Source: Candidatus Tenderia sp. (GTDB taxonomy: Bacteria > Pseudomonadota > Gammaproteobacteria > Tenderiales > Tenderiaceae). From it: a DNA stretch of 35,512 bases. Positions 857 through 10,704 of this stretch are shown piece after piece (the stretch's first letter is position 1; each line of letters begins with the position of its first letter). Location of the stretch: the NCBI GenBank assembly GCA_043779675.1, contig JAYWDX010000049.1, positions 1 through 35,512 of the forward strand, read 5' to 3'. The position numbers and the translations under genes are program-made. The notes beneath the pieces are model-generated. The model worked only from the letters and a program-made list of their open reading frames with translations, ran no database searches and was not told the origin of the DNA.

Positions 857-2749
857 TTACTTGCCGTTTACCACCGATAACAGCAGATCATTCAAACGCG
901 AAACAAAGCTGGCCGGATCTTCCAACTGACCACCTTCGCTCAACAGCGCCTGATCAAACAGCACATGGCTCCAATCACCAAAGCGCGCTTCATCACTCTC
1001 GCTCTGCAACCGCTCCACCAACGGATGGCTGGTATTGATCTCCAGGATTGGCTCCACATTCGGCACGGCATGGCCGGCCTGTTTCAGAATCTTCTGCAAA
1101 CTCACCGCCATATCCTGCTCTTCGACCACCAGGCATGAAGGTGACTTGGTGAGACGGTGGCTGACACGCACCTCTTTCACCTTGCCGCCCAGCGCCTTCT
1201 GCATGCGCTCAACCAGATCCTTATACTGATCAGCCGCCTTTTTGACCTCCTCCTGCTCTGCTTCATCTTCGAGCTTGCCGAGATCAAGATCACCCTTGGC
1301 CACAGACTGGAGCTGCTTACTGTCGAACTCGCTGAGGTAAGACATCATCCACTCATCAACACGCTCACTCATCAGCAGCACTTCGATCCCCTTCTTCTCA
1401 AACACTTCGAGATGCGGGCTGTTCTTGGCGGCAGCGAAGCTATCAGCAGTGATGTAGTAGAGCTTTTCCTGACCTTCCTTCATGCGACTGATGTATGCAT
1501 CCAACGAAACGCTCTGCTCGCCACTCTTGTCGTAGGTAGAGCTGAAGCGCAGCAGTTTGGCGATGCGCTCCTTGTTGCTGCTATCTTCCGCTGGACCTTC
1601 CTTCATCACCTTGCCAAATTCGTTCCAGAAGGTTTTGTATTTATCCGCATCGTTCTTGGCCAGATTCTCCAGCAGGCCAAGCACGCGCTTGATGGAGGCC
1701 GCACGAATGGTGTCGATCTGTTTGTTGCGTTGTAGAATCTCGCGTGAGACGTTGAGTGGCAGGTCATCGGTATCAACAATACCGCGCACAAAGCGCAGAT
1801 AGGTCGGCATCAGCTGCTCGGCATCGTCCATGATAAAAACACGGCGCACATAGAGCTTCACGCCATGGGCGCGATCACGCTCCCACAGGTCAAATGGGGC
1901 GCGTTTAGGAACATAAAAGAGTGTGGTGTAGTTGGTATTGCCTTCAACCTTGTTGTGGCTGTAGGCGAGTGGATCTTCGTAATCGTGGCCAACGTGTTTA
2001 TAAAATTCGTTGTACTCCGCTTCAGTGATCTCGTTCTTGGAACGAGCCCAAAGTGCCGAAGCACTGTTCACCACTTCGTATTCATCCTTCTTATCTTCAG
2101 CCAGCGCTTTCATCTGAATCGGCAGATTAATGTGGTCAGAATATTTCTTAATAAGGGTGCGCAGGCGGTAAGTCTCAAGGAACTCATCCTCACCCTCACG
2201 CAGATGCAGCACGATCTCGGTGCCACGGCTAGTCTTCTCAGCAGTCTCGATGGTGTATTCACCCTCGCCCGCCGATTCCCAGCGTACCCCGTGCCCAGTA
2301 CCGACACCGGCGCGGCGCGTGGTCAGGGTCACCTTGTCGGCGATGATGAAGGCCGAGTAGAAACCGACACCAAACTGGCCGATCAACTGCGAATCCTTGG
2401 CCTGATCACCGCTTAATTTATCGAAGAAGGAACGGGTGCCGGACTTGGCGATAGTACCTATGTTATCCATCACCTCTTCACGGTTCATACCAATGCCATT
2501 GTCGTTAAGGGTGATAGTGCGCTGCTCTTTATCCACATCGATACGGATCTTCAGCTCGCCATCGTCCTCAAACAGAGCGTTGTCGGTCAGCGCCTCAAAA
2601 CGCAGTTTGTCGCAGGCGTCTGATCCGTTAGAGATCAGTTCGCGCATAAATATCTCTTTATTAGAGTAGAGCGAATGAATCATCAACTTGAGCAGCTGGC
2701 GCACTTCGGTCTGGAAACCAAGCGTCTCTTTATGGGCTTCTACGGACAT
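857..2749 (-). CDS. htpG: Chaperone HtpG (Hsp90)
   Basis: [51 protein letters not shown] motifs; 630 aa; GGAG RBS upstream. Confidence 0.99.
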
Positions 2750-4527: not shown

Positions 4528-4655
4528 TTGAAGCGAGGAGATTGGTGAGCAGAAAATTTACAAAAATAGAAGTTGTGTACACAATTGCAGGGGCTTGAGT
4601 GTGCAGTGCCCCTTATCCTGCGCCACTAATGACAGCAACTTACAAGGAAAATTAT

Positions 4656-5351
4656 ATGCCAAATGTATTGCGTATCGACAGCACAGGCAACGAGGTCAAA
4701 CAGCTGCAAGCATTGTTAAACAAAAAACTCAAACCAACACCCCAGCTTGCAGAAGACGGGGCATTTGGCCCAAACACAGACAAACTAGTCAAAAAATTTC
4801 AAGCCATTAATAATCTTGGCATTGACGGTGTTGTCGGACCAAAAACCTGGGCAGTACTCTTGGGCGGAGCTAAGCCAGCGGCACAACCGACGGTTCTAGT
4901 ACACGTCACCCCATCGTCCCCATGGATGCGCTATGCAAAAGACGAGATCAACCAGAAAGAGACCAAAGGCAATACACATAATCCACGCATCATCAACTAC
5001 CACGCCACAACAACACTTAAAGCCGATACAGATGAAACCCCATGGTGCTCATCTTTTGTAAACTGGTGCCTTATACAAGCCGACATCAAAGGAACCGATT
5101 CGGCCGCCGCCGTTAGCTGGTTAACATGGGGCAAGAATTCAAATGCCCAGAGTGGCGCAATCACCGTGATATACAACTCAGCAGCAGCCAACTCCAGCTT
5201 AACCAGCTCTGGTAACCATGTGGGTTTTTTAGTTAAAGAGACCGCAACACATTTTTTTATACTAGGCGGCAACCAGAGTGATCAGGTAAAGATCTCCTCC
5301 TTCCCAAAAAGCACGTGGAACCTAAAAGGTTGCAGATGGCCCAATACATGA
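4656..5351 (+). CDS. Peptidoglycan-binding domain + TIGR02594-like (NlpC/P60/CHAP-type Cys-His) putative peptidoglycan hydrolase
   Basis: N-terminal VKQLQALL...DGAFGPNT...VKKFQ...DGVVGPKTW (PG_binding_1 pattern); C-terminal PWM...NPRI...DETPWCSSFVNW...SWLTWG...NHVGF...LGGNQ. AAGGA RBS before the ATG at 4656; no signal peptide. Confidence 0.85.
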   Translation: MPNVLRIDSTGNEVKQLQALLNKKLKPTPQLAEDGAFGPNTDKLVKKFQAINNLGIDGVVGPKTWAVLLGGAKPAAQPTVLVHVTPSSPWMRYAKDEINQKETKGNTHNPRIINYHATTTLKADTDETPWCSSFVNWCLIQADIKGTDSAAAVSWLTWGKNSNAQSGAITVIYNSAAANSSLTSSGNHVGFLVKETATHFFILGGNQSDQVKISSFPKSTWNLKGCRWPNT

Positions 5352-5805
5352 AAAAAAACTCCACAGACACGCCTTGATATTTAAAATAACTATTGCTACC
5401 TGTCTGCTAGCACTTTTTGCTATCGGCTGTTCCACGCAGGGGCAGAAAATCACAGCACAAGAATTTTGGACAGAGTTCCGGCAAGCGGTATTAGAAAACG
5501 ACAATACCAAGTTGGCAGACATGACTCAATTGCCACTGGAAATCCGTGGTGTCGATGATAGTCAGCCGGCCCAACAATACAACAAAGACCAATTCGGTAC
5601 TATCTTTGCCAAAATACTGGATCAACCCGTCACCGCCATAGAGGGGGAAAAGATTGTTACTAACACCACCAGAGATATTATTAATTCCACCAAAACAATC
5701 ACCAAAGAACAAAACATGACAAGTGACTCTTTCCGGGTTGACCAGCTAGTATTTGAATTTAAAAATGGGCAATGGAAGCTCGTTCGTGTGTATCTTGAAG
5801 AGTAG
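5348..5805 (+). CDS. Lipoprotein, putative immunity/inhibitor partner; likely true start (ATG 5348) is out of frame at an A8 tract, alternative TTG start at 5374
   Basis: Hydrophobic signal and lipobox ...LLALFAIG-C. The ATG at 5348 overlaps the upstream stop (ATGA); one extra A gives MKKKLHRHALIFKITIATCLLALFAIGC. Confidence 0.7.
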
Positions 5806-5905
5806 AGGTGGAATCCCCTATCAGAAAAAATCGAAATTTAGTCAACGACAAACAACATCTACAGAAAACTCAATAAATATTAGCCAAACCAATTGAAATC
5901 ACAAA

Positions 5906-5980
5906 TAAACTACCACCTGCTAAAGCAGGTGGGTTAGCGCAGTCAGGTGCGACGACTAAAGTCGTCAACCGCACCTGTCT
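5906..5980. mobile_element. Orphan IS200/IS605-like end (two TAAA-loop hairpins), no transposase
   Basis: CCACCTGC-TAAA-GCAGGTGG (5913-5932) and CAGGTGC-GACGAC-TAAA-GTCGTC-aacc-GCACCTG (5944-5977); resembles the subterminal hairpins recognised by Y1 (HUH) transposases. Confidence 0.6.
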
Positions 5981-6375
5981 AAACGCGCATGAGTCAACAC
6001 ATGAAGGTCAAAGTCACCCAGCCATGATGTCGCTATAGTTATCAGCGAGCGCCTTAATCCAGTTGTTCCTATTTTGAGATCGCGCTTTTGGAACAGATTT
6101 CACAGTTTTATTTACATCATGCAACTAGAGTTATTAACAATCAGCATCTTGCCAGGATACTGATGGAGTGCTCAAAACATCATTTACATGACAAAGATAC
6201 TGACGCGCCCTCATCTAATAACCCTTGTTTTTGATTAATCAAAAAAATCTGGGGGACGGTGCTCAGATCAAATCCGATATATCCACATCAGAATCAGTGG
6301 CAATATATTTCTTTTATTTCCATAAAAACTTAATGGAATATTAATATATCCAGCGTATTATCGCACTCACCTCAA

Positions 6376-6403
6376 ACGCTATGCCTGCTTTTTGGCATAG
6401 CGT
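6376..6403. repeat. Perfect 10-bp inverted repeat upstream of the micropeptide gene (operator or RNA hairpin)
   Basis: ACGCTATGCC-N8-GGCATAGCGT. Confidence 0.55.
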
Positions 6404-6501
6404 CTTCTCTGAAACTTAATAAGAGATAGCGAGGAAGTACTAGCACTTAATTGCTAGATTGTTGCAAATCTCAATAACTTTAAAAAAATCAGGAGTTTAT
6501 C

Positions 6502-6567
6502 ATGGGTGGAATGAACGGCGGTATGGGCGGTATGGGTGGTCGTGGTTGTGGCGGCGGCGGCATGTAA
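6502..6567 (+). CDS. 21-aa Gly/Met-rich micropeptide MGGMNGGMGGMGGRGCGGGGM
   Basis: AGGAG at 6491-6495, 6 nt before the ATG; in-frame TAA at 6481 bounds it upstream; GC-rich, with mixed GGT/GGC/GGA Gly codons inside AT-rich DNA; followed by hairpins and a terminator. Below the ORF-track cutoff. Confidence 0.75.
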   Translation: MGGMNGGMGGMGGRGCGGGGM

Positions 6568-6641
6568 TATGCCCGCGTCATGCGCGCACTCTTGTTATTA
6601 AGAGGTGCAGCGCATAACCGTTATGGCTCACGCCATAAAAT

Positions 6642-6675
6642 AAAATAGGGGGGCAATCTGCTCCCCTATTTTTTT
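6642..6675. terminator. Bidirectional intrinsic terminator between micropeptide and ABC exporter
   Basis: AAAATAGGGGGGCA-ATC-TGCTCCCCTATTTT followed by further Ts; A-tract on the left side. Confidence 0.85.
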
Positions 6676-6796
6676 AATCAAAAAACCCAACACTACCCAC
6701 TTAATCAAAAAAATAAAATAACTTTCCGTCCTTATAACCACCGCTTAATGCCATTTAAATTCAACGCCATCAACAAAGCTTAGGCTGTTATTTCAG

Positions 6797-8566
6797 TCAC
6801 GAATCAGACTGCCATGCCACGGCATTCCGATAGGCGGGATGAGAGGCATATAACTCATCATGAGGCGCTACTGTAATTGAGCCATCATCATTAAAGTAAA
6901 GTATGCGGTCGGCATTGCGAATGGACGAGTAACGATGGGCAATTATAAAAGTCGTACGTCCTGCGCGTAACCTATCCAGCGCCACTACCACTTCTCTCTC
7001 CGACTGACTATCCAGTGCAGATGTTGCCTCATCCATTATCAAAAATGGTGTGTCCCGTAACATCGCCTGGGCAATGGCGATGCGCTGATACTGCCCGCCT
7101 GAAAGCTCTACTCCACCAGTGCCCACTCGCGTATCGAGACCATCACTAAGCCCGACGATAAACTGCCATGCCCCACTTGCTTCGCAGGCACTGATCATCT
7201 GCGCCTCTGTTGCATCCGCCTGCACCAACAACAGATTGGTACGGATGGTATCGTTCATGATAAAAGGACTTTGCCAGATGATAGAGAATTGTTCCCTCAA
7301 TGATGCGATAGTCACTTTGCGAATATCCATAGCGTCAATCGTGATACGACCTTGCTGGGGATCATAAAAACGCATCAGCAACCGTGCCAGAGTCGACTTA
7401 CCTGCGCCGCTCGGCCCAACCAAGGCAACGGTTTCGCCCGATTCAATCGTAATATCAATCCCATTCAACAACGGCTTACCACCAGGGTAGGCAAAACAGA
7501 TGCCTTCAAAGCGGATCAAACCCTTCGAAACTTCCAATAATCCTGCATCGGATACGTCCTTTGTCTCAGGCACCATATCAAAGATCGCTAAAACACGCTG
7601 GGCGGCCCCCAGGTCACCCTGTAGCTGCATGGGCGCTTGCGCGATCCCCCTCACTGGCACCGAGAGATACCCCAGGTAGAGTAGAAAGCTGACCATGGCT
7701 CCAATGCCAAGCCCTTGGCTCTCTATCCGATCGATACCCACAAAGACAATGATAATGCCGCAAAAATAGATCATGGCGGCCAAGGTCACTGCAAACCCCT
7801 GATCCAACCAACGCATCTTCATACCCCAATGACGGGCGCGTTCGTAACATTCTCCATGCCGTTCAGCCATACGTGCCTCGCCCCTGACCGAACTGATGCC
7901 GCGCAGATTACTCAACGTCTGCTCCTCAAACGCCAGCAGTTCTCCTGACTCATGATAAAAACGTTCTGATACCTTGCGCTTACGCGGACCAAACATGGCT
8001 TGATGAATGACAAACAGCGGCACAAACATTAGCGCCACCAATGCCAGATACCAATCTATCCAAAACAACATGCCACAATAAAACAGCAAGGTGAGCAGGT
8101 GAGAGACAAGAAAAAAAGGGACCTCAAGCACCATGTTCTGCACGGCATCAACATCACTGCTGAGTCGGGCAAGCAGATCGCCTTTGTGCAGATGTGCAGC
8201 ACCTGGTGCGGAGACGTTAAGTAAATGGCGTAGCGCGGCTTGGCGTAATCGGCCCACAAAACGCAGCCCCAGCCAGTTGGCCATCAGCGTGGATGAGAAG
8301 TGAAACGCCTGATTGATCACAACAACCAACGCCAACCACAACAGCACCGACTTGACCTGCTCAAAACGCCCTGCTTGCAGGTGGTCAAAAGGGAGTCCTA
8401 TCAACCAGACCATAGCGGTATTGGTGACTGTTAAGCCTACAATGGCACCAACCACTAAACTGATAAACATCATATCAGCACGTGCATATGGCAAAAAATG
8501 CCGGAATACCTGCCAGAAGACAGGCCCTTGCGTAAGGTTCACGTCTTTATTATCAGGATCACTCAC
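6797..8566 (-). CDS. ABC exporter, fused permease + ATPase (MsbA/peptide-exporter type), no C39 peptidase domain evident
   Basis: N-terminal transmembrane domain; Walker A GPSGAGKS, signature LSGGQ, Walker B LIMDE, H-loop IAHR. Start placed at GTG 8566, which overlaps the upstream stop (GTGA). Confidence 0.92.
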   Translation of the reverse strand: MSDPDNKDVNLTQGPVFWQVFRHFLPYARADMMFISLVVGAIVGLTVTNTAMVWLIGLPFDHLQAGRFEQVKSVLLWLALVVVINQAFHFSSTLMANWLGLRFVGRLRQAALRHLLNVSAPGAAHLHKGDLLARLSSDVDAVQNMVLEVPFFLVSHLLTLLFYCGMLFWIDWYLALVALMFVPLFVIHQAMFGPRKRKVSERFYHESGELLAFEEQTLSNLRGISSVRGEARMAERHGECYERARHWGMKMRWLDQGFAVTLAAMIYFCGIIIVFVGIDRIESQGLGIGAMVSFLLYLGYLSVPVRGIAQAPMQLQGDLGAAQRVLAIFDMVPETKDVSDAGLLEVSKGLIRFEGICFAYPGGKPLLNGIDITIESGETVALVGPSGAGKSTLARLLMRFYDPQQGRITIDAMDIRKVTIASLREQFSIIWQSPFIMNDTIRTNLLLVQADATEAQMISACEASGAWQFIVGLSDGLDTRVGTGGVELSGGQYQRIAIAQAMLRDTPFLIMDEATSALDSQSEREVVVALDRLRAGRTTFIIAHRYSSIRNADRILYFNDDGSITVAPHDELYASHPAYRNAVAWQSDS

Positions 8567-10581
8567 GAGCGGGAATCGGTAAAACAGCGTGCCGTTTTTT
8601 TGATAAACAGTTCGTGCAGAATCTGAACCGTCAAGACCGAGAACAGTACCCACTCCTGTCGCATCGCCCGGTAATAAGCATTCCCGTCGGATGGTGGGGG
8701 CAGATCAACCAATTCCCCCAGCAGGCGGGTGACCGTTTGCGAATCAAATATACCCGCTTCCCGCACCTTATCCTCTGACAGGAAACGCGATAAACGGTCA
8801 GCATTTTTTGGCGTAAAAAACCATTCACGGATGGGCGTGTAAAAGGCACGTTTTTTATAGGCCGTAGGATTTTCTGGTAATTTTGGCAACATCAACTTGC
8901 GTAGGATGTACTTCTCATCCAGACCATTAAGCTTCAGTGCGGGCGGTACCTTTGCCGCCAACTCCACCAATTTATGGTCAAGAAAAGGGACCCGCGCCTC
9001 CACACCATTGGCCATAGCGAGACGATCCGCCCGCCACAGTATCCAACCCGGCAGACGGGTTTTGGTCTCCAGATACAGGGATTGATTAAGTGGGTGCAAC
9101 CCTTCCAGCTTGGGTTTCAGAGTGATAATCAGTTGTGCCATCTGCTCTTGGTGACCGGCAGACTGTTCCAAAAAATCATCGCTGAACACCCCTTCACTCC
9201 CCTCTCGCAAAATCTGCCAGAAGTCGTACCAGACCGGATAACAACCAAATTGCGAAACGATCTTCTGCTGTTGCCTCGGCTCATGCAAGCGGGCCAGCAT
9301 CTGAAGATAGTCAGAGGCAAAGTCACTACCAAAATCACCTAAATAATAGCGCAGCCGCTCTTCCTGACTTGCCTTCTCATTACCCCACTGACGAATGTAG
9401 TCCTGGCGAAAACAGTCATACCCGCCCAGAATTTCATCCGCCCCCTCGCCGGTATACACAACCTTAAACTGGTTTTCACTCACCCGCTTCGACAACATCA
9501 GCAACGGGATATCCAGCGCCATGCGTTGTGGCTGCTCAACGCTGTACATAGCTTCAACTAATACATCGAGATAATCATCAGTACACTGATCGTCCATATA
9601 GAGATCGTGCAGATCGACTCCGATATGAGCGGCGACGCCACTGGTGACCGGATACTCGTCGTTGTCACTATTGGAGAAACGGATGGTAAAGGCCTGCACA
9701 TGCAGATCTGCATTCTGCTGCAACCAGTAAGTAGTGGTCGCGGAATCGACGCCACCAGAGAGATATGAACCAATAGGCACCTCTCCTATCATATGAGAGC
9801 TCACAGCATCTTGCAGGGCTCCATCAAACTCCCCCAGCCACTGCTCTTCACTGAGGTCATCATATTCACCCTCACGCGGAAAATTCAGATCCCAGTAACA
9901 GACAATCTGTGGCGACTTGCCTGGCGCCAGGGTCATGGTGTGCCCTGGTGCTAACTCAACCACCCCAGAAAATAACGTGTGTGGAGCTATATTGAATTGA
10001 TATGTGAAAAAATTGCGCAACGATTGGGGATTAAATTCCGGTGTAATCTGGCCCGAAGCAAACAGTGATTTGACCTCCGAGGCACCGTATAAGCTGCTGC
10101 CATCCCAGTGGTAGACCAGCGGTTTAATGCCCAGCCTGTCACGCGCCACAAACAACTCATTTGTTAACGAGTCATGAATGGCAAAGGCAAACATACCGCG
10201 CAGACGTGGAACACACTGCGCACCATCACGGATAAATAAATTGAGGATGACCTCAGTATCGGACTGACTATGAAACAGAACGCCCTGCTGTTCGAGTTCC
10301 GCACGCAATGCCTGATAATTATAGATTTCGCCGTTATAGACAATGGCAAAGCGGGCATCTGGGCTAACCATTGGTTGAGCACCGCCACGTATGTCAACAA
10401 TGCTCAGGCGTGTATGCCCCAGCGCCACAGCACCACGCAGAAGATGGTTTTGCGCATCGGGCCCTCGGTGAATCAACGCATTCACCATGCGCTGTATTAC
10501 TGCGACATCAGCCTCACTCTCGGCTAATTTTTCTTGGTATTGGGGGGGGTTATGACGATAGATGAAACAAATTCCACACAT
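8563..10581 (-). CDS. asnB: Asparagine synthetase B-like glutamine amidotransferase (substrate uncertain)
   Basis: N-terminal nucleophile MCGI, HRGPD, LGHTRLSIVD, NGEIYN, SDTEV, RDRLGIKPL, PP-loop LSGGVDS, TGEGADE, RVPFLD. Confidence 0.92.
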   Translation of the reverse strand: MCGICFIYRHNPPQYQEKLAESEADVAVIQRMVNALIHRGPDAQNHLLRGAVALGHTRLSIVDIRGGAQPMVSPDARFAIVYNGEIYNYQALRAELEQQGVLFHSQSDTEVILNLFIRDGAQCVPRLRGMFAFAIHDSLTNELFVARDRLGIKPLVYHWDGSSLYGASEVKSLFASGQITPEFNPQSLRNFFTYQFNIAPHTLFSGVVELAPGHTMTLAPGKSPQIVCYWDLNFPREGEYDDLSEEQWLGEFDGALQDAVSSHMIGEVPIGSYLSGGVDSATTTYWLQQNADLHVQAFTIRFSNSDNDEYPVTSGVAAHIGVDLHDLYMDDQCTDDYLDVLVEAMYSVEQPQRMALDIPLLMLSKRVSENQFKVVYTGEGADEILGGYDCFRQDYIRQWGNEKASQEERLRYYLGDFGSDFASDYLQMLARLHEPRQQQKIVSQFGCYPVWYDFWQILREGSEGVFSDDFLEQSAGHQEQMAQLIITLKPKLEGLHPLNQSLYLETKTRLPGWILWRADRLAMANGVEARVPFLDHKLVELAAKVPPALKLNGLDEKYILRKLMLPKLPENPTAYKKRAFYTPIREWFFTPKNADRLSRFLSEDKVREAGIFDSQTVTRLLGELVDLPPPSDGNAYYRAMRQEWVLFSVLTVQILHELFIKKTARCFTDSRS

Positions 10582-10653
10582 CACAGGCTCTCACATAATC
10601 AATCTCTGCAAACAACGCCGGCTAGTGACAATCTGCGGCCTAATTCACGCAAC

Positions 10654-10679
10654 AAAAAAGGGGCTATTAGCCCCTTTTT
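10654..10679 (-). terminator. Intrinsic terminator after pnp
   Basis: AAAAAAGGGGCTA-T-TAGCCCCTTTTT symmetric hairpin with A/T tracts on both sides. Confidence 0.9.
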
Positions 10680-10704
10680 ACATCAGAGGCACGTTAATAA
10701 ACGC

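What the first reader, a model, noticed from the sequence alone, without database searches (positions are those of the whole stretch)
6491..10581. Candidate undescribed peptide-modification/export system: 21-aa Gly/Met micropeptide + AsnB-like amidotransferase + ABC exporter
Seen: a tiny ORF with an ideal RBS and its own terminator converges on a translationally coupled (GTGA) AsnB-like/ABC-exporter pair, in an accessory block between pgm and pnp. Known: AsnB-fold enzymes adenylate carboxylates in RiPP pathways (lasso cyclases; C-terminal amidation in thiostrepton), and a housekeeping asparagine synthetase has no obvious need for a coupled exporter. Inference: the peptide has no Asp/Glu, so its only carboxylate is the C-terminus. 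The enzyme keeps its N-terminal Cys (MCGI), so glutamine-dependent C-terminal amidation is the simplest model, with head-to-tail cyclisation as an alternative. No leader peptide, RRE or C39 peptidase is visible, which would make this a minimal leaderless RiPP. The convergent orientation weakens the link.
Basis: partly seen in the sequence, partly recalled or inferred. Interest (0 to 1): 0.85.

Follow-up and report, generated by a model that had tools for sequence, protein, structure and literature searches.

The report
Gly/Met micropeptide with dedicated ABC exporter
A tiny, never-annotated gene for a peptide made almost only of glycine and methionine travels together with its own ABC exporter in several groups of sediment Gammaproteobacteria, and with an asparagine-synthetase-like enzyme in most of them, which points to a new kind of exported peptide whose role is still unknown.

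Summary
The 21-aa ORF (6502-6567, +) has an AGGAG ribosome-binding site and its own terminator. It converges on an AsnB-like gene and an ABC gene that overlap by GTGA.

The sORF is a real, conserved gene family of the form M(GnM)k, 21-60 aa, with no acidic residue in 19 peptides.

Its constant partner is the ABC half-transporter, not AsnB.
- 12 of 13 ABC-orthologue loci with enough flank carry such an sORF within about 3 kb, and 11 of these are convergent.
- These loci come from five families. Four of those families lie outside the window's own order.
- Among 400 class-level genomes the ABC clade occurs in 9, and all 9 have free-standing Gly/Met sORFs.

The AsnB clade occurs in 7 of those 400 genomes, and all 7 are ABC-positive. 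It is fused to the ABC only in the Tenderia-like genus. Elsewhere it lies next to an sORF in 1 of 11 loci.

Best model: a leaderless peptide is exported by a dedicated ABC transporter, and AsnB is an optional tailoring enzyme, most simply a glutamine-dependent C-terminal amidase. Asparagine-synthetase-like (AS-like) enzymes that do this in RiPP pathways are a published precedent. The chemistry, the export and the physiological role are untested.

The peptides are absent from a 15-billion-protein collection, and I found no paper describing them. Interest is high, but all the evidence is comparative.

The parts
6491..6495 (+). Shine-Dalgarno AGGAG, 6 nt upstream of the sORF start
   Evidence: Read directly. 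A GGAG, GAGG or AGGA core lies 9-13 nt before the Gly-proximal ATG in 13 of the 19 copies as printed. In four more the script extended the start to an upstream ATG, and the site is then read in frame just before the Gly-proximal ATG (as KE or LE). The remaining two (G008, G291) have no canonical core.
6502..6567 (+). Micropeptide gene, 21 codons plus TAA. It belongs to an unannotated family of leaderless Gly/Met-rich peptides of the form M(GnM)k.
   Evidence: ORF. (homologous sORFs in 13 further genomes). (variation concentrated at codon position 3). (in-frame indel only). (composition, no acidic residue).
6568..6682 (+). Structured 3' UTR of the sORF: three conserved hairpins, the last being the intrinsic terminator (6648-6667 plus T-run)
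   Evidence: terminator scan. (alignment of 7 copies from 4 species). (25 predicted pairs, 7 with compensatory changes).
6797..8566 (-). ABC half-transporter (six-helix membrane domain plus ATPase domain, 589 aa) with no peptidase domain. It belongs to a rare clade that is the constant partner of the sORF.
   Evidence: ABC_membrane plus ABC_tran; best NCBIfam match MsbA at 376 bits against a cut-off of 602. (clade in 9 of 400 class genomes). (sORF beside it in 12 of 13 assessable loci). (six hydrophobic segments).
8563..10581 (-). AsnB-family glutamine amidotransferase (672 aa, starts MCGI, PP-loop SGGVDS). It is translationally coupled to the ABC through the GTGA overlap at 8563-8566.
   Evidence: The 4-nt overlap is conserved in all five same-genus genomes. 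Invariant columns include C2, R58, N83-G84-E85, D108 and S275/G277/D279/S280.
10582..10704 (-). Intergenic region between pnp and the AsnB-ABC pair. It holds a GC hairpin plus T-run after pnp, so the pair probably has its own promoter.
   Evidence: Read directly. The scan, which covered this stretch, lists neither a terminator-like nor a promoter-like site here, so both the hairpin and the implied promoter rest on reading by eye.

Best explanation
The sORF encodes a leaderless micropeptide with no charged side chains apart from occasional Arg or His. It is built of Gly runs punctuated by Met. It is made from its own short, strongly terminated transcript.

The peptide together with the convergent ABC half-transporter forms a mobile two-gene module. 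The transporter, acting as a homodimer, carries the peptide across the inner membrane into the periplasm. No membrane-fusion or outer-membrane partner is encoded nearby.

In the Tenderia-like genus an AsnB-family, glutamine-hydrolysing amidotransferase has been placed directly in front of the ABC gene and coupled to it translationally. It most likely adenylates the peptide's only carboxylate, the C-terminal Met alpha-carboxylate, and converts it to a carboxamide before export. A second ATP-dependent step to a nitrile is conceivable.

**Shown:** the gene family, its coding signature, the sORF-ABC linkage, the genome-level AsnB-ABC co-occurrence, and an intact glutaminase Cys and PP-loop.

**Inferred:** that the peptide is the cargo, that AsnB acts on it, and the chemistry.

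**Physiological role:** open. My leading guess, at about one in four, is a periplasmic soft-metal (Cu(I)/Ag(I)) or oxidant buffer, because Met/Gly (and Met/His) tracts are typical copper-handling motifs.
For: **1. The gene is real.**
- It has a ribosome-binding site, an ATG, a stop and a terminator.
- Variation is concentrated at codon position 3.
- The only indel inside the ORF in a co-occurring strain is in frame.
- One or two copies are present in each of 3 same-genus loci.

**2. The ABC linkage is strong.**
- 12 of 13 assessable ABC-orthologue loci carry an sORF within about 3 kb: 10 are immediate convergent neighbours, one is convergent with two genes between (G291), and one is co-directional upstream (G415). 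The outer flanks are unrelated.
- The ABC clade is in 9 of 400 class genomes, and free-standing sORFs were found in all 9.
- The 8 other genomes hit by the strict Gly/Met DNA pattern carry the tract only inside large proteins.
- Four close relatives without the ABC (two of them 100% complete) show only GroEL tails with a relaxed pattern.
- The window's order contains only family f1, so the four other families are from other orders.

**3. The AsnB is linked, less directly.**
- The 4-nt overlap with the ABC is conserved in 5 of 5 congeneric genomes.
- The AsnB clade is in 7 of 400 genomes, all ABC-positive.
- Four further genomes reached through AsnB loci all have the ABC orthologue (a fifth row is the same genome as G267).
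- In G418 an AsnB orthologue lies 2.8 kb from an sORF with no ABC beside it.

**4. It is not housekeeping.** No AsnRS passes its cut-off in 5 of 5 genomes tested. These organisms therefore presumably make Asn-tRNA by transamidation. This rests on established knowledge of that pathway.

**5. The chemistry is plausible.**
- There are 0 Asp/Glu in about 680 residues of 19 peptides.
- Cys2, the glutaminase residues and the PP-loop are invariant.
- AS-like TsrC and ScdTA amidate RiPP C-termini, and PesC goes on to a nitrile (PMC13060819, passages read).
- 15 of 17 peptides in AsnB-positive genomes end in Met. The 2 peptides from AsnB-negative genomes end in Arg.
Against: - No expression or peptide data exist. 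No RNA run holds the locus.
- Two of nine ABC-positive genomes in the class sample, and G013, lack the AsnB clade, so AsnB is dispensable for the module.
- Outside Tenderia the AsnB sits among unrelated housekeeping genes in 10 of 11 loci.
- Co-occurring genomes are related and few, five families. The count of C-terminal Met against Arg rests on one AsnB-negative genus.
- Both G322 peptides do not end in Met although that genome has two AsnB copies.
- The search for sORFs in ABC-negative genomes used a strict pattern. It would miss MGGM-type copies such as the window's own, so 'none elsewhere' is a floor.
- An ABC half-transporter alone reaches only the periplasm. Nothing shows that the peptide, rather than a lipid or glycan, is the cargo, and the closest NCBIfam models are MsbA-like.
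- The Arg-rich, Met-poor variants in genus g5 weaken a metal-binding role.
Confidence: 0.42

Rival explanations
1. The sORF-ABC module is real, but the AsnB-like enzyme has another substrate. It might amidate a cell-envelope or small-molecule carboxylate, or make free asparagine. Its place in the Tenderia operon and its phyletic overlap would then reflect shared lineage history or a common regulon, not action on the peptide.
For: - The AsnB passes the general asparagine synthase model TIGR01536, 427 bits against a cut-off of 267.
- It is unlinked to sORF and ABC in 10 of 11 loci outside Tenderia.
- The module works without it in G008, G013 and G156.
- Its second-best family is the XrtA/PEP-CTERM amidotransferase, a family with no peptide substrate shown.
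- The core motif around E. coli Glu348 is kept, as TGEGADE.
Against: - The clade is found only in ABC-positive genomes, 7 of 7 in 400 plus 4 of 4 further genomes.
- Within the window's own order it occurs only in the genus where it is fused to the ABC.
- A second, independent adjacency to an sORF exists in G418.
- The genomes lack AsnRS.
- It fails the AsnB equivalog model NF006949, 282 bits against 499.
Confidence: 0.27
2. The peptide is not the cargo. It is instead a regulator or accessory subunit of the ABC transporter, or its structured transcript acts as an RNA (a dual-function small RNA or antisense element) that controls the convergent ABC gene.
For: - The convergent arrangement is strictly conserved, with only about 200-250 nt between the two gene ends.
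- The 3' UTR is conserved with compensatory changes.
- Small proteins that modulate transporters are an established class (recalled, not tested here).
Against: - The peptides are not hydrophobic helices, and their length and sequence drift freely from 21 to 60 aa, which is unlike a stoichiometric subunit.
- Strong terminators separate the two genes.
- Extra sORF copies lie far from any ABC gene in G267, G322, G412 and G156.
- In G415 the sORF is upstream and co-directional.
- No Rfam family reaches its gathering score.
Confidence: 0.14
3. The peptide is an exported antimicrobial or signalling peptide, that is a leaderless microcin-like bacteriocin, and the ABC serves as exporter and self-immunity.
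For: - A small leaderless peptide sits next to a dedicated ABC exporter.
- Distribution is patchy and accessory: 7 of 17 genomes in the order, in unrelated flanks.
- Sequence and length diversify rapidly and genomes carry multiple copies.
- Cationic Gly/Arg variants occur in G008 and G013.
Against: - No membrane-fusion protein, TolC-like gene or immunity gene was seen beside any of the loci annotated.
- The composition has no amphipathic or Cys/Ser heterocycle potential.
- Homologous Gly/Met tracts occur inside resident secreted proteins of the same genomes.
Confidence: 0.1
4. The sORF is not translated. It is a GGN-rich simple repeat that happens to be framed by ATG and a stop codon, and its neighbourhood to the ABC is inherited synteny.
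For: - It is low-complexity sequence.
- No gene caller has ever reported it: 10 of 10 peptides are absent from the protein collection.
- No expression data exist.
Against: - A ribosome-binding site lies at the right spacing, read directly or in frame, in 17 of 19 copies.
- Every copy begins at ATG and stays open to a stop directly after the last Gly/Met unit.
- Variation is at codon position 3, and the only indel is in frame.
- The pair is conserved across orders in different flanks.
Confidence: 0.05

Closest known systems
Asparagine-synthetase-like enzymes that modify the C-terminus of ribosomal peptides: TsrC (thiostrepton), ScdTA, and the nitrile synthetase PesC (PMC13060819, passages read)
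   Same: - AS-family fold, ATP-dependent adenylation of a carboxylate, and ammonia from glutamine.
- The enzyme here keeps Cys2, the glutaminase residues and the PP-loop.
- It is encoded beside a short peptide gene whose only carboxylate is the C-terminus.
   Different: - Those substrates are leader-containing, heavily modified RiPP precursors from Gram-positive clusters with several other enzymes.
- Here the peptide is leaderless, low-complexity Gly/Met, and has no other tailoring gene.
- Sequence kinship to TsrC, ScdTA or PesC was not tested, because I held no sequences of them.
- The best solved relative is the hydroxyamidotransferase 7ylz, followed by E. coli AsnB 1ct9.
Microcin J25-type lasso peptide systems (AsnB-like cyclase McjC plus ABC exporter McjD plus small precursor); gene names recalled
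   Same: The gene content is similar: a short peptide gene, an AsnB homologue and a half-size ABC exporter without a peptidase domain, in a proteobacterium.
   Different: - The lasso cyclase model NF033535 scores 193 bits against a cut-off of 525.
- The enzyme keeps the glutaminase Cys.
- The peptide has no Asp or Glu for an isopeptide bond and no leader.
- No McjB-like protease or RRE is present.
C-terminal (GGM)n tail of GroEL
   Same: - It is the only described Gly/Met repeat in bacteria that my literature search returned (abstract of PMC11978752 read).
- It has the same residue pair, also ends in Met, and is flexible.
- groEL lies directly upstream of the ABC orthologue in two genomes, G322 and G418.
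   Different: - GroEL tails are 13-20 residues fused to a 57-kDa cytoplasmic chaperonin.
- Here the tract is the whole gene product and is paired with an exporter.
- No evidence links the two functionally.
Met-rich (and Met/His-rich) Cu(I)/Ag(I)-binding segments of periplasmic copper proteins such as CueO, PcoA/CopA and SilE/PcoE (names recalled)
   Same: - Thioether-rich, flexible, periplasmic.
- The same Gly/Met tracts occur in three multicopper-oxidase-domain proteins of other Gammaproteobacteria.
- One sORF variant adds His.
   Different: - No copper-resistance or copper-handling gene was found beside any sORF-ABC locus.
- The variants in genus g5 are Arg-rich and Met-poor.
- Metal binding is untested.
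Leaderless peptides exported by dedicated ABC transporters (leaderless bacteriocins, phenol-soluble modulins); recalled
   Same: A ribosomal peptide is made without a signal or leader sequence, and a neighbouring ABC exporter serves as its only visible route out of the cytoplasm.
   Different: - Those peptides are amphipathic helices of Gram-positive bacteria.
- These are poly-Gly/Met peptides in Gram-negative bacteria, with no outer-membrane component.

Membership tests
Class II (Ntn) glutamine-dependent asparagine synthetase family (PF13537 plus PF00733; TIGR01536) | N-terminal nucleophile Cys directly after Met1 | tested here: met
   The protein starts MCGI. C2 is invariant in 11 orthologues.
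Class II (Ntn) glutamine-dependent asparagine synthetase family (PF13537 plus PF00733; TIGR01536) | PP-loop SGGxDS and the curated score of the family model | tested here: met
   SGGVDS is present, with S275, G277, D279 and S280 invariant. TIGR01536 scores 427 bits against a cut-off of 267. Pfam Asn_synthase has E-value 1e-75.
Housekeeping asparagine synthetase B (NF006949 equivalog) | Score above the equivalog cut-off, and a distribution that fits a biosynthetic need for free Asn | tested here: not met
   NF006949 scores 282 bits against 499. The clade is in 7 of 400 class genomes. No AsnRS passes its cut-off in 5 of 5 genomes. Activity on Asp was not testable.
Lasso peptide cyclase (NF033535) | Family score; an acceptor Asp or Glu at position 7-9 of the core peptide; a partner leader protease or RRE | tested here: not met
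   The model scores 193 bits against 525. There is no Asp or Glu in 19 peptides. Pfam finds no protease or RRE in the window proteins scanned.
XrtA/PEP-CTERM system amidotransferase (TIGR03108) | Family score above the cut-off | tested here: not met
   The model scores 406 bits against 817. I did not search for an exosortase gene.
AS-like peptide C-terminal amidating or nitrile-forming enzymes (TsrC, ScdTA, PesC) | Acts on the alpha-carboxylate of a ribosomal peptide encoded in the same cluster | not testable with these tools
   Co-location with a peptide gene holds in five congeneric genomes and in G418. The activity needs a biochemical assay. Sequence comparison with these enzymes was not done. 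The complex prediction gave no verdict and is listed only under Tried and rejected.
MsbA lipid A flippase (TIGR02203 / NF008381) | Score above the equivalog cut-off, and near-universal presence in Gram-negative genomes | tested here: not met
   The models score 376 bits against 602 and 315 against 867. The clade is present in 9 of 400 class genomes and 7 of 17 genomes of the order.
Peptidase-containing bacteriocin ABC exporters (PCAT; TIGR01193, TIGR03796) | N-terminal C39 peptidase domain, and a double-glycine leader on the cargo | tested here: not met
   Only ABC_membrane and ABC_tran are found, and the protein starts about 25 residues before the first membrane helix. The scores are far below the cut-offs. 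The peptide has no leader.
RiPP precursor peptide (general definition) | A leader or follower region recognised by the tailoring enzymes, followed by proteolytic release of a core | tested here: not met
   The peptides begin with Met-Gly-Gly directly after the ribosome-binding site and consist of the repeat from the first to the last residue. If the peptide is modified, this would be a leaderless case.

The most novel reading that the evidence does not exclude
Free, GroEL-tail-like poly(Gly/Met) peptides are a new class of exported bacterial product. They would be a genetically encoded, leaderless, disordered 'soft' polymer pumped into the periplasm by a dedicated ABC transporter and C-terminally capped by an AsnB-type enzyme. 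There it would act as a sacrificial thioether buffer or chaperone-like filler, binding Cu(I)/Ag(I), quenching oxidants or shielding unfolded envelope proteins, in sediment chemolithoautotrophs. Resident secreted proteins of the same genomes carry the same Gly/Met tracts, which hints at a genome-wide use of this motif tied to the module.
Probability: 0.2. Interest if true: 0.9.

Novelty: new variant of a known kind. Interest (0 to 1): 0.76.

Why it matters
If the model holds, it would have four consequences.
- It adds a peptide family that every gene caller has missed to the list of bacterial exported products. 10 of 10 peptides are absent from a 15-billion-protein collection.
- It shows that an ABC exporter can be dedicated to a leaderless, low-complexity cargo.
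- It would give the smallest known peptide-modification system: one enzyme, one exporter and no leader.
- It offers a simple test substrate for how asparagine-synthetase-like enzymes recognise a peptide C-terminus.

The organisms are uncultivated electroautotroph and sulfur-oxidiser relatives (order Tenderiales; listing of 10.1101/2022.05.06.490989). A periplasmic Met-rich buffer could bear on how they cope with metals or oxidants at mineral and electrode surfaces.

Tried and rejected
**Steps that led nowhere**
- **HMMER search with a 40-aa peptide over 401 genomes.** It is insensitive: the query's own gene scored E = 0.385. It is therefore useless for this low-complexity family, and I replaced it with DNA patterns.
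- **Pattern scan of metagenome contigs.** Of the 80 loci, 79 carry Gly/Met tracts inside large frames, none holds an M(GnM)k sORF, and 0 of 80 hold an ABC, AsnB, C57-family or 815-aa homologue. It serves only as a background control and did not widen the family.
- **RNA evidence.** No RNA holder is listed for window 6200-10700, so expression could not be assessed.
- **Complex prediction of the G001 AsnB (alignment A3) with its 40-aa peptide.** No verdict: score 0.01, and the controls were not run. This is neither for nor against binding.
- **Rfam on 5800-6900.** Five matches, all far below their gathering scores.
- **Exact look-up of 10 peptides.** None is in the collection. The look-up is by exact sequence, so a differently started version could be missed.
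- **Literature.**
  - searched glycine/methionine-rich peptide terms and returned only GroEL-tail papers and unrelated work.
  - One search gave the AS-like RiPP precedent.
  - One search found no paper holding both 'Tenderia' and 'asparagine synth'.
  - I found nothing in print on free Gly/Met micropeptide genes with these four searches.
Expression tables of the Tenderia metatranscriptome paper (PMC5371394, listing only) might bear on whether the AsnB and ABC genes are expressed.

**Ideas considered and dropped**
- **Leader-peptide attenuator.** Nothing lies downstream on the sORF's strand, and a terminator follows it.
- **Copper operon.** There are no copper genes beside the loci.
- **C57-family secreted protein as an obligate third component.** Homologues exist in ABC-negative genomes.
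- **815-aa membrane protein of G418 as a substitute exporter.** It has only one further homologue, in L034.
- **C-terminal hydrophobic stretch of the AsnB as a membrane anchor.** No segment reaches the hydropathy threshold.

Full report
**1. What is in the window**

The 21-codon ORF runs from 6502 to 6567 on the + strand and reads MGGMNGGMGGMGGRGCGGGGM. An AGGAG lies 6 nt upstream. A GC-rich stem-loop with a T-run follows at 6648-6667.

On the opposite strand, a 672-aa protein starting MCGI (8563-10581) and a 589-aa protein (6797-8566) overlap by GTGA.
- Pfam and NCBIfam call the first a glutamine amidotransferase plus asparagine synthase. TIGR01536 scores 427 bits against a cut-off of 267. 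The E. coli-type AsnB, XrtA-system and lasso-cyclase models all fall below their cut-offs.
- They call the second an ABC_membrane plus ABC_tran half-transporter. Its nearest models are MsbA-like but below cut-off.
- There is no C39 peptidase, RRE or leader.

pnp lies upstream of the pair. A hairpin plus T-run read by eye after pnp separates the two. The scan, which covered this stretch, reports neither it nor a promoter.

**2. Is the sORF a gene?**

AsnB orthologues at 81-93% identity occur in all four other genomes of the genus. The search for related loci names these 'Candidatus Tenderia sp.' and related gammaproteobacterial MAGs.

In all five genomes the order is infB-rbfA-truB-rpsO-pnp-AsnB-ABC, with the same 4-nt AsnB/ABC overlap.

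In the three other loci that extend past the ABC there are one short (21-24 aa) and one long (29-43 aa) Gly/Met ORF, convergent with the ABC. The fourth contig ends 230 nt after it. Beyond the sORFs synteny stops, so the sORFs stay with the enzyme-exporter pair.

Each copy is a unit of ribosome-binding site, ORF, three-hairpin 3' UTR and terminator. Of 25 predicted pairs, 7 show compensatory changes.

Two results point to coding constraint.
- Within the ORF, variable columns number 7, 6 and 17 of 22 at codon positions 1, 2 and 3.
- Metagenome contigs from the habitat (sediment, coded runs) hold a strain variant. Its only indel inside the ORF is 3 nt, while the flanks carry indels of 1, 1, 7 and 1 nt. 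In the variant the Cys and Arg codons read Gly.

**3. The exporter is the constant partner**

A DNA pattern for two Met-Gly4 units hit 15 of 401 class-level genomes, and the reversed-pattern controls hit none.
- In six of the seven ABC-positive genomes hit, the match lies in a free-standing sORF of the same M(GnM)k form. In the seventh, G000, the pattern hit only the C57 protein.
- In the eight ABC-negative genomes the tract lies inside large proteins: three with multicopper-oxidase domains, a polysaccharide-export protein, Ffh and others.

Searching the same genomes with the ABC protein at E <= 1e-120 gave 9 of 400 genomes at 44-82% identity. These are exactly the genomes with free-standing sORFs plus two more, G008 and G059. 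In those two a relaxed scan then found an sORF next to the ABC.

Over all ABC-orthologue loci with at least 1 kb of flank, 12 of 13 have an sORF within about 3 kb.
- Ten are immediate convergent neighbours.
- G291 is convergent, with DegP-like and Hsp20 genes in between.
- G415 has the sORF upstream on the same strand.
- G417 has none.
- Five further loci end within 301 nt of the ABC and cannot be judged.

The outer neighbours differ from family to family. The window's order contains a single family, in which the ABC is present in 7 of 17 genomes. The other four families therefore belong to other orders.

Four close relatives without the ABC show only GroEL tails with a relaxed pattern.

One caveat applies. 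The 391 ABC-negative genomes were screened only with the strict pattern, which misses MGGM-type copies.

**4. Where the AsnB fits**

At E <= 1e-150 the AsnB clade is in 7 of the same 400 genomes, all ABC-positive. Four further genomes reached through AsnB loci also have the ABC orthologue (a fifth row duplicates G267).

G008, G013 and G156 have the module without the enzyme.

Outside Tenderia the AsnB gene stands among unrelated genes: hybrid kinases, RlmJ, Fpg and methyltransferases. An sORF lies within 6 kb in 1 of 11 loci. That locus is G418, where an 815-aa membrane protein of no known family separates them.

No AsnRS passes its cut-off in 5 of 5 genomes tested. Together with the rarity of the clade, this argues against a housekeeping role.

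The enzyme is thus best read as an optional tailoring function that exists only where the module exists. It is physically fused to the module in one genus.

**5. Chemistry and role**

Nineteen complete peptides total about 680 residues. The composition is 67% Gly and 17% Met, with the rest Ala, Pro, Arg and a few others. No Asp, Glu, Lys, Ser or Thr occurs. The C-terminus is therefore the only carboxylate.

The enzyme keeps Cys2, the glutaminase residues and the PP-loop. This fits ammonia transfer rather than lasso-type cyclisation.

AS-like enzymes that amidate RiPP C-termini (TsrC, ScdTA) and one that continues to a nitrile (PesC) are described in PMC13060819 (passages read).

Fifteen of 17 peptides in AsnB-positive genomes end in Met. 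The two from AsnB-negative genomes end in Arg. This is suggestive, but it rests on one genus.

The role is open.
- Met/Gly and Met/His tracts suggest soft-metal binding, and the same tracts sit on multicopper oxidases.
- No copper genes flank the loci, and the g5 variants are Arg-rich.
- Chaperone genes recur nearby: htpG in the window, groEL directly upstream of the ABC in two genomes, and DegP and Hsp20 in G291. GroEL tails are the only Gly/Met repeat my literature searches returned.

**6. Verdict**

- A real, unannotated micropeptide family with a dedicated ABC exporter: I hold about 0.8 that the two are functionally linked.
- That the peptide is the cargo: about 0.55.
- That AsnB modifies its C-terminus: about 0.35-0.4.

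All the evidence is comparative. Expression, export and modification need the experiments listed.

Noticed in passing
L037:4253-5305 (-) = G000 contig C57, outside the window; L095:7050-9111 (+) in G008: This is a multi-copy family of about 310-350-aa secreted, Cys-containing proteins with no Pfam match. Each has three Gly-rich tracts, one of them at the very C-terminus. In ABC-positive genomes the tracts are Gly/Met and end in Met, and in G008 two copies sit divergently next to the ABC. In ABC-negative relatives the same tracts are Gly/Arg/Trp (G010) or missing (G007).
   Followed up: partly
L103:2518-4176 (-) (G322) and L101:5767-7404 (+) (G418); window 857-2749 (-): groEL, with its GGM tail, lies directly upstream of the ABC orthologue on the same strand in two genomes from different lineages. 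The window has htpG 3.7 kb from the sORF. G291 has DegP-like and Hsp20 genes between the ABC and the sORF. This may be a proteostasis or heat-shock neighbourhood, or coincidence.
   Followed up: no
window 6568-6682 (+) and the equivalent stretches of L021, L023, L024: The 3' UTR of both short and long sORF copies keeps three hairpins, and 7 of 25 pairs show compensatory changes. No Rfam family matches. This suggests a stable, abundant small transcript or an additional RNA-level role.
   Followed up: partly
L040, L053, L054 (other Gammaproteobacteria): Gly/Met tracts of the same kind sit at the N-terminal part of three multicopper-oxidase-domain proteins. They also occur in a polysaccharide-export (Poly_export) protein, L046.
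   Followed up: partly
G000, G001, G008, G010, G291 (whole genomes): No asparaginyl-tRNA synthetase passes the TIGR00457 cut-off in any of the five genomes. The hits are other class II synthetases by their scores. These lineages therefore probably use the tRNA-dependent route to Asn.
   Followed up: no
L096:2996-6106 (-) (G059) and L097:2698-5790 (-) (G412): A protein of about 1030 aa with a spermine/spermidine-synthase-like domain (plus an MFS region in G059) lies just beyond the sORF in two different families.
   Followed up: no
L032:5936-8383 (+) (G418) and L034:7899-10598 (+): An 815-899-aa protein with no Pfam match follows the AsnB orthologue in two genomes. In G418 it separates the AsnB from the sORF. 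It has two hydrophobic segments and an HELGY motif that resembles a degenerate zinc-peptidase site.
   Followed up: no
window 6502-6567 in metagenome contigs of runs X1-X4: A co-occurring strain differs in the sORF by eight substitutions and one 3-nt insertion (Cys to Gly, Arg to Gly, Met to Asn, Gly to Asn). A fourth run holds other Gly/Met sORF starts with ribosome-binding sites from other organisms. This suggests fast diversification.
   Followed up: partly
window 4599-5351 (+); L021:11960-12856 (-); L023:3592-4524 (+); L032:9285-9800 (-): Cell-wall enzymes recur on the far side of the sORFs: PG_binding_1 plus TIGR02594 in the window, M23 peptidases in two congeners, and NlpC/P60 and SLT in G418. 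M23 enzymes include Gly-Gly endopeptidases (recalled). No link has been shown.
   Followed up: no
L086/L098:9439-9606 (-) (G267), L073:3732-3905 (+) (G322), L075 (G156), L024:9536-9658 (-): Some family members carry a long (Ala-Pro)n or Pro/Ala-rich spacer between, or in front of, the Gly/Met ends. One replaces some Met by His.
   Followed up: no
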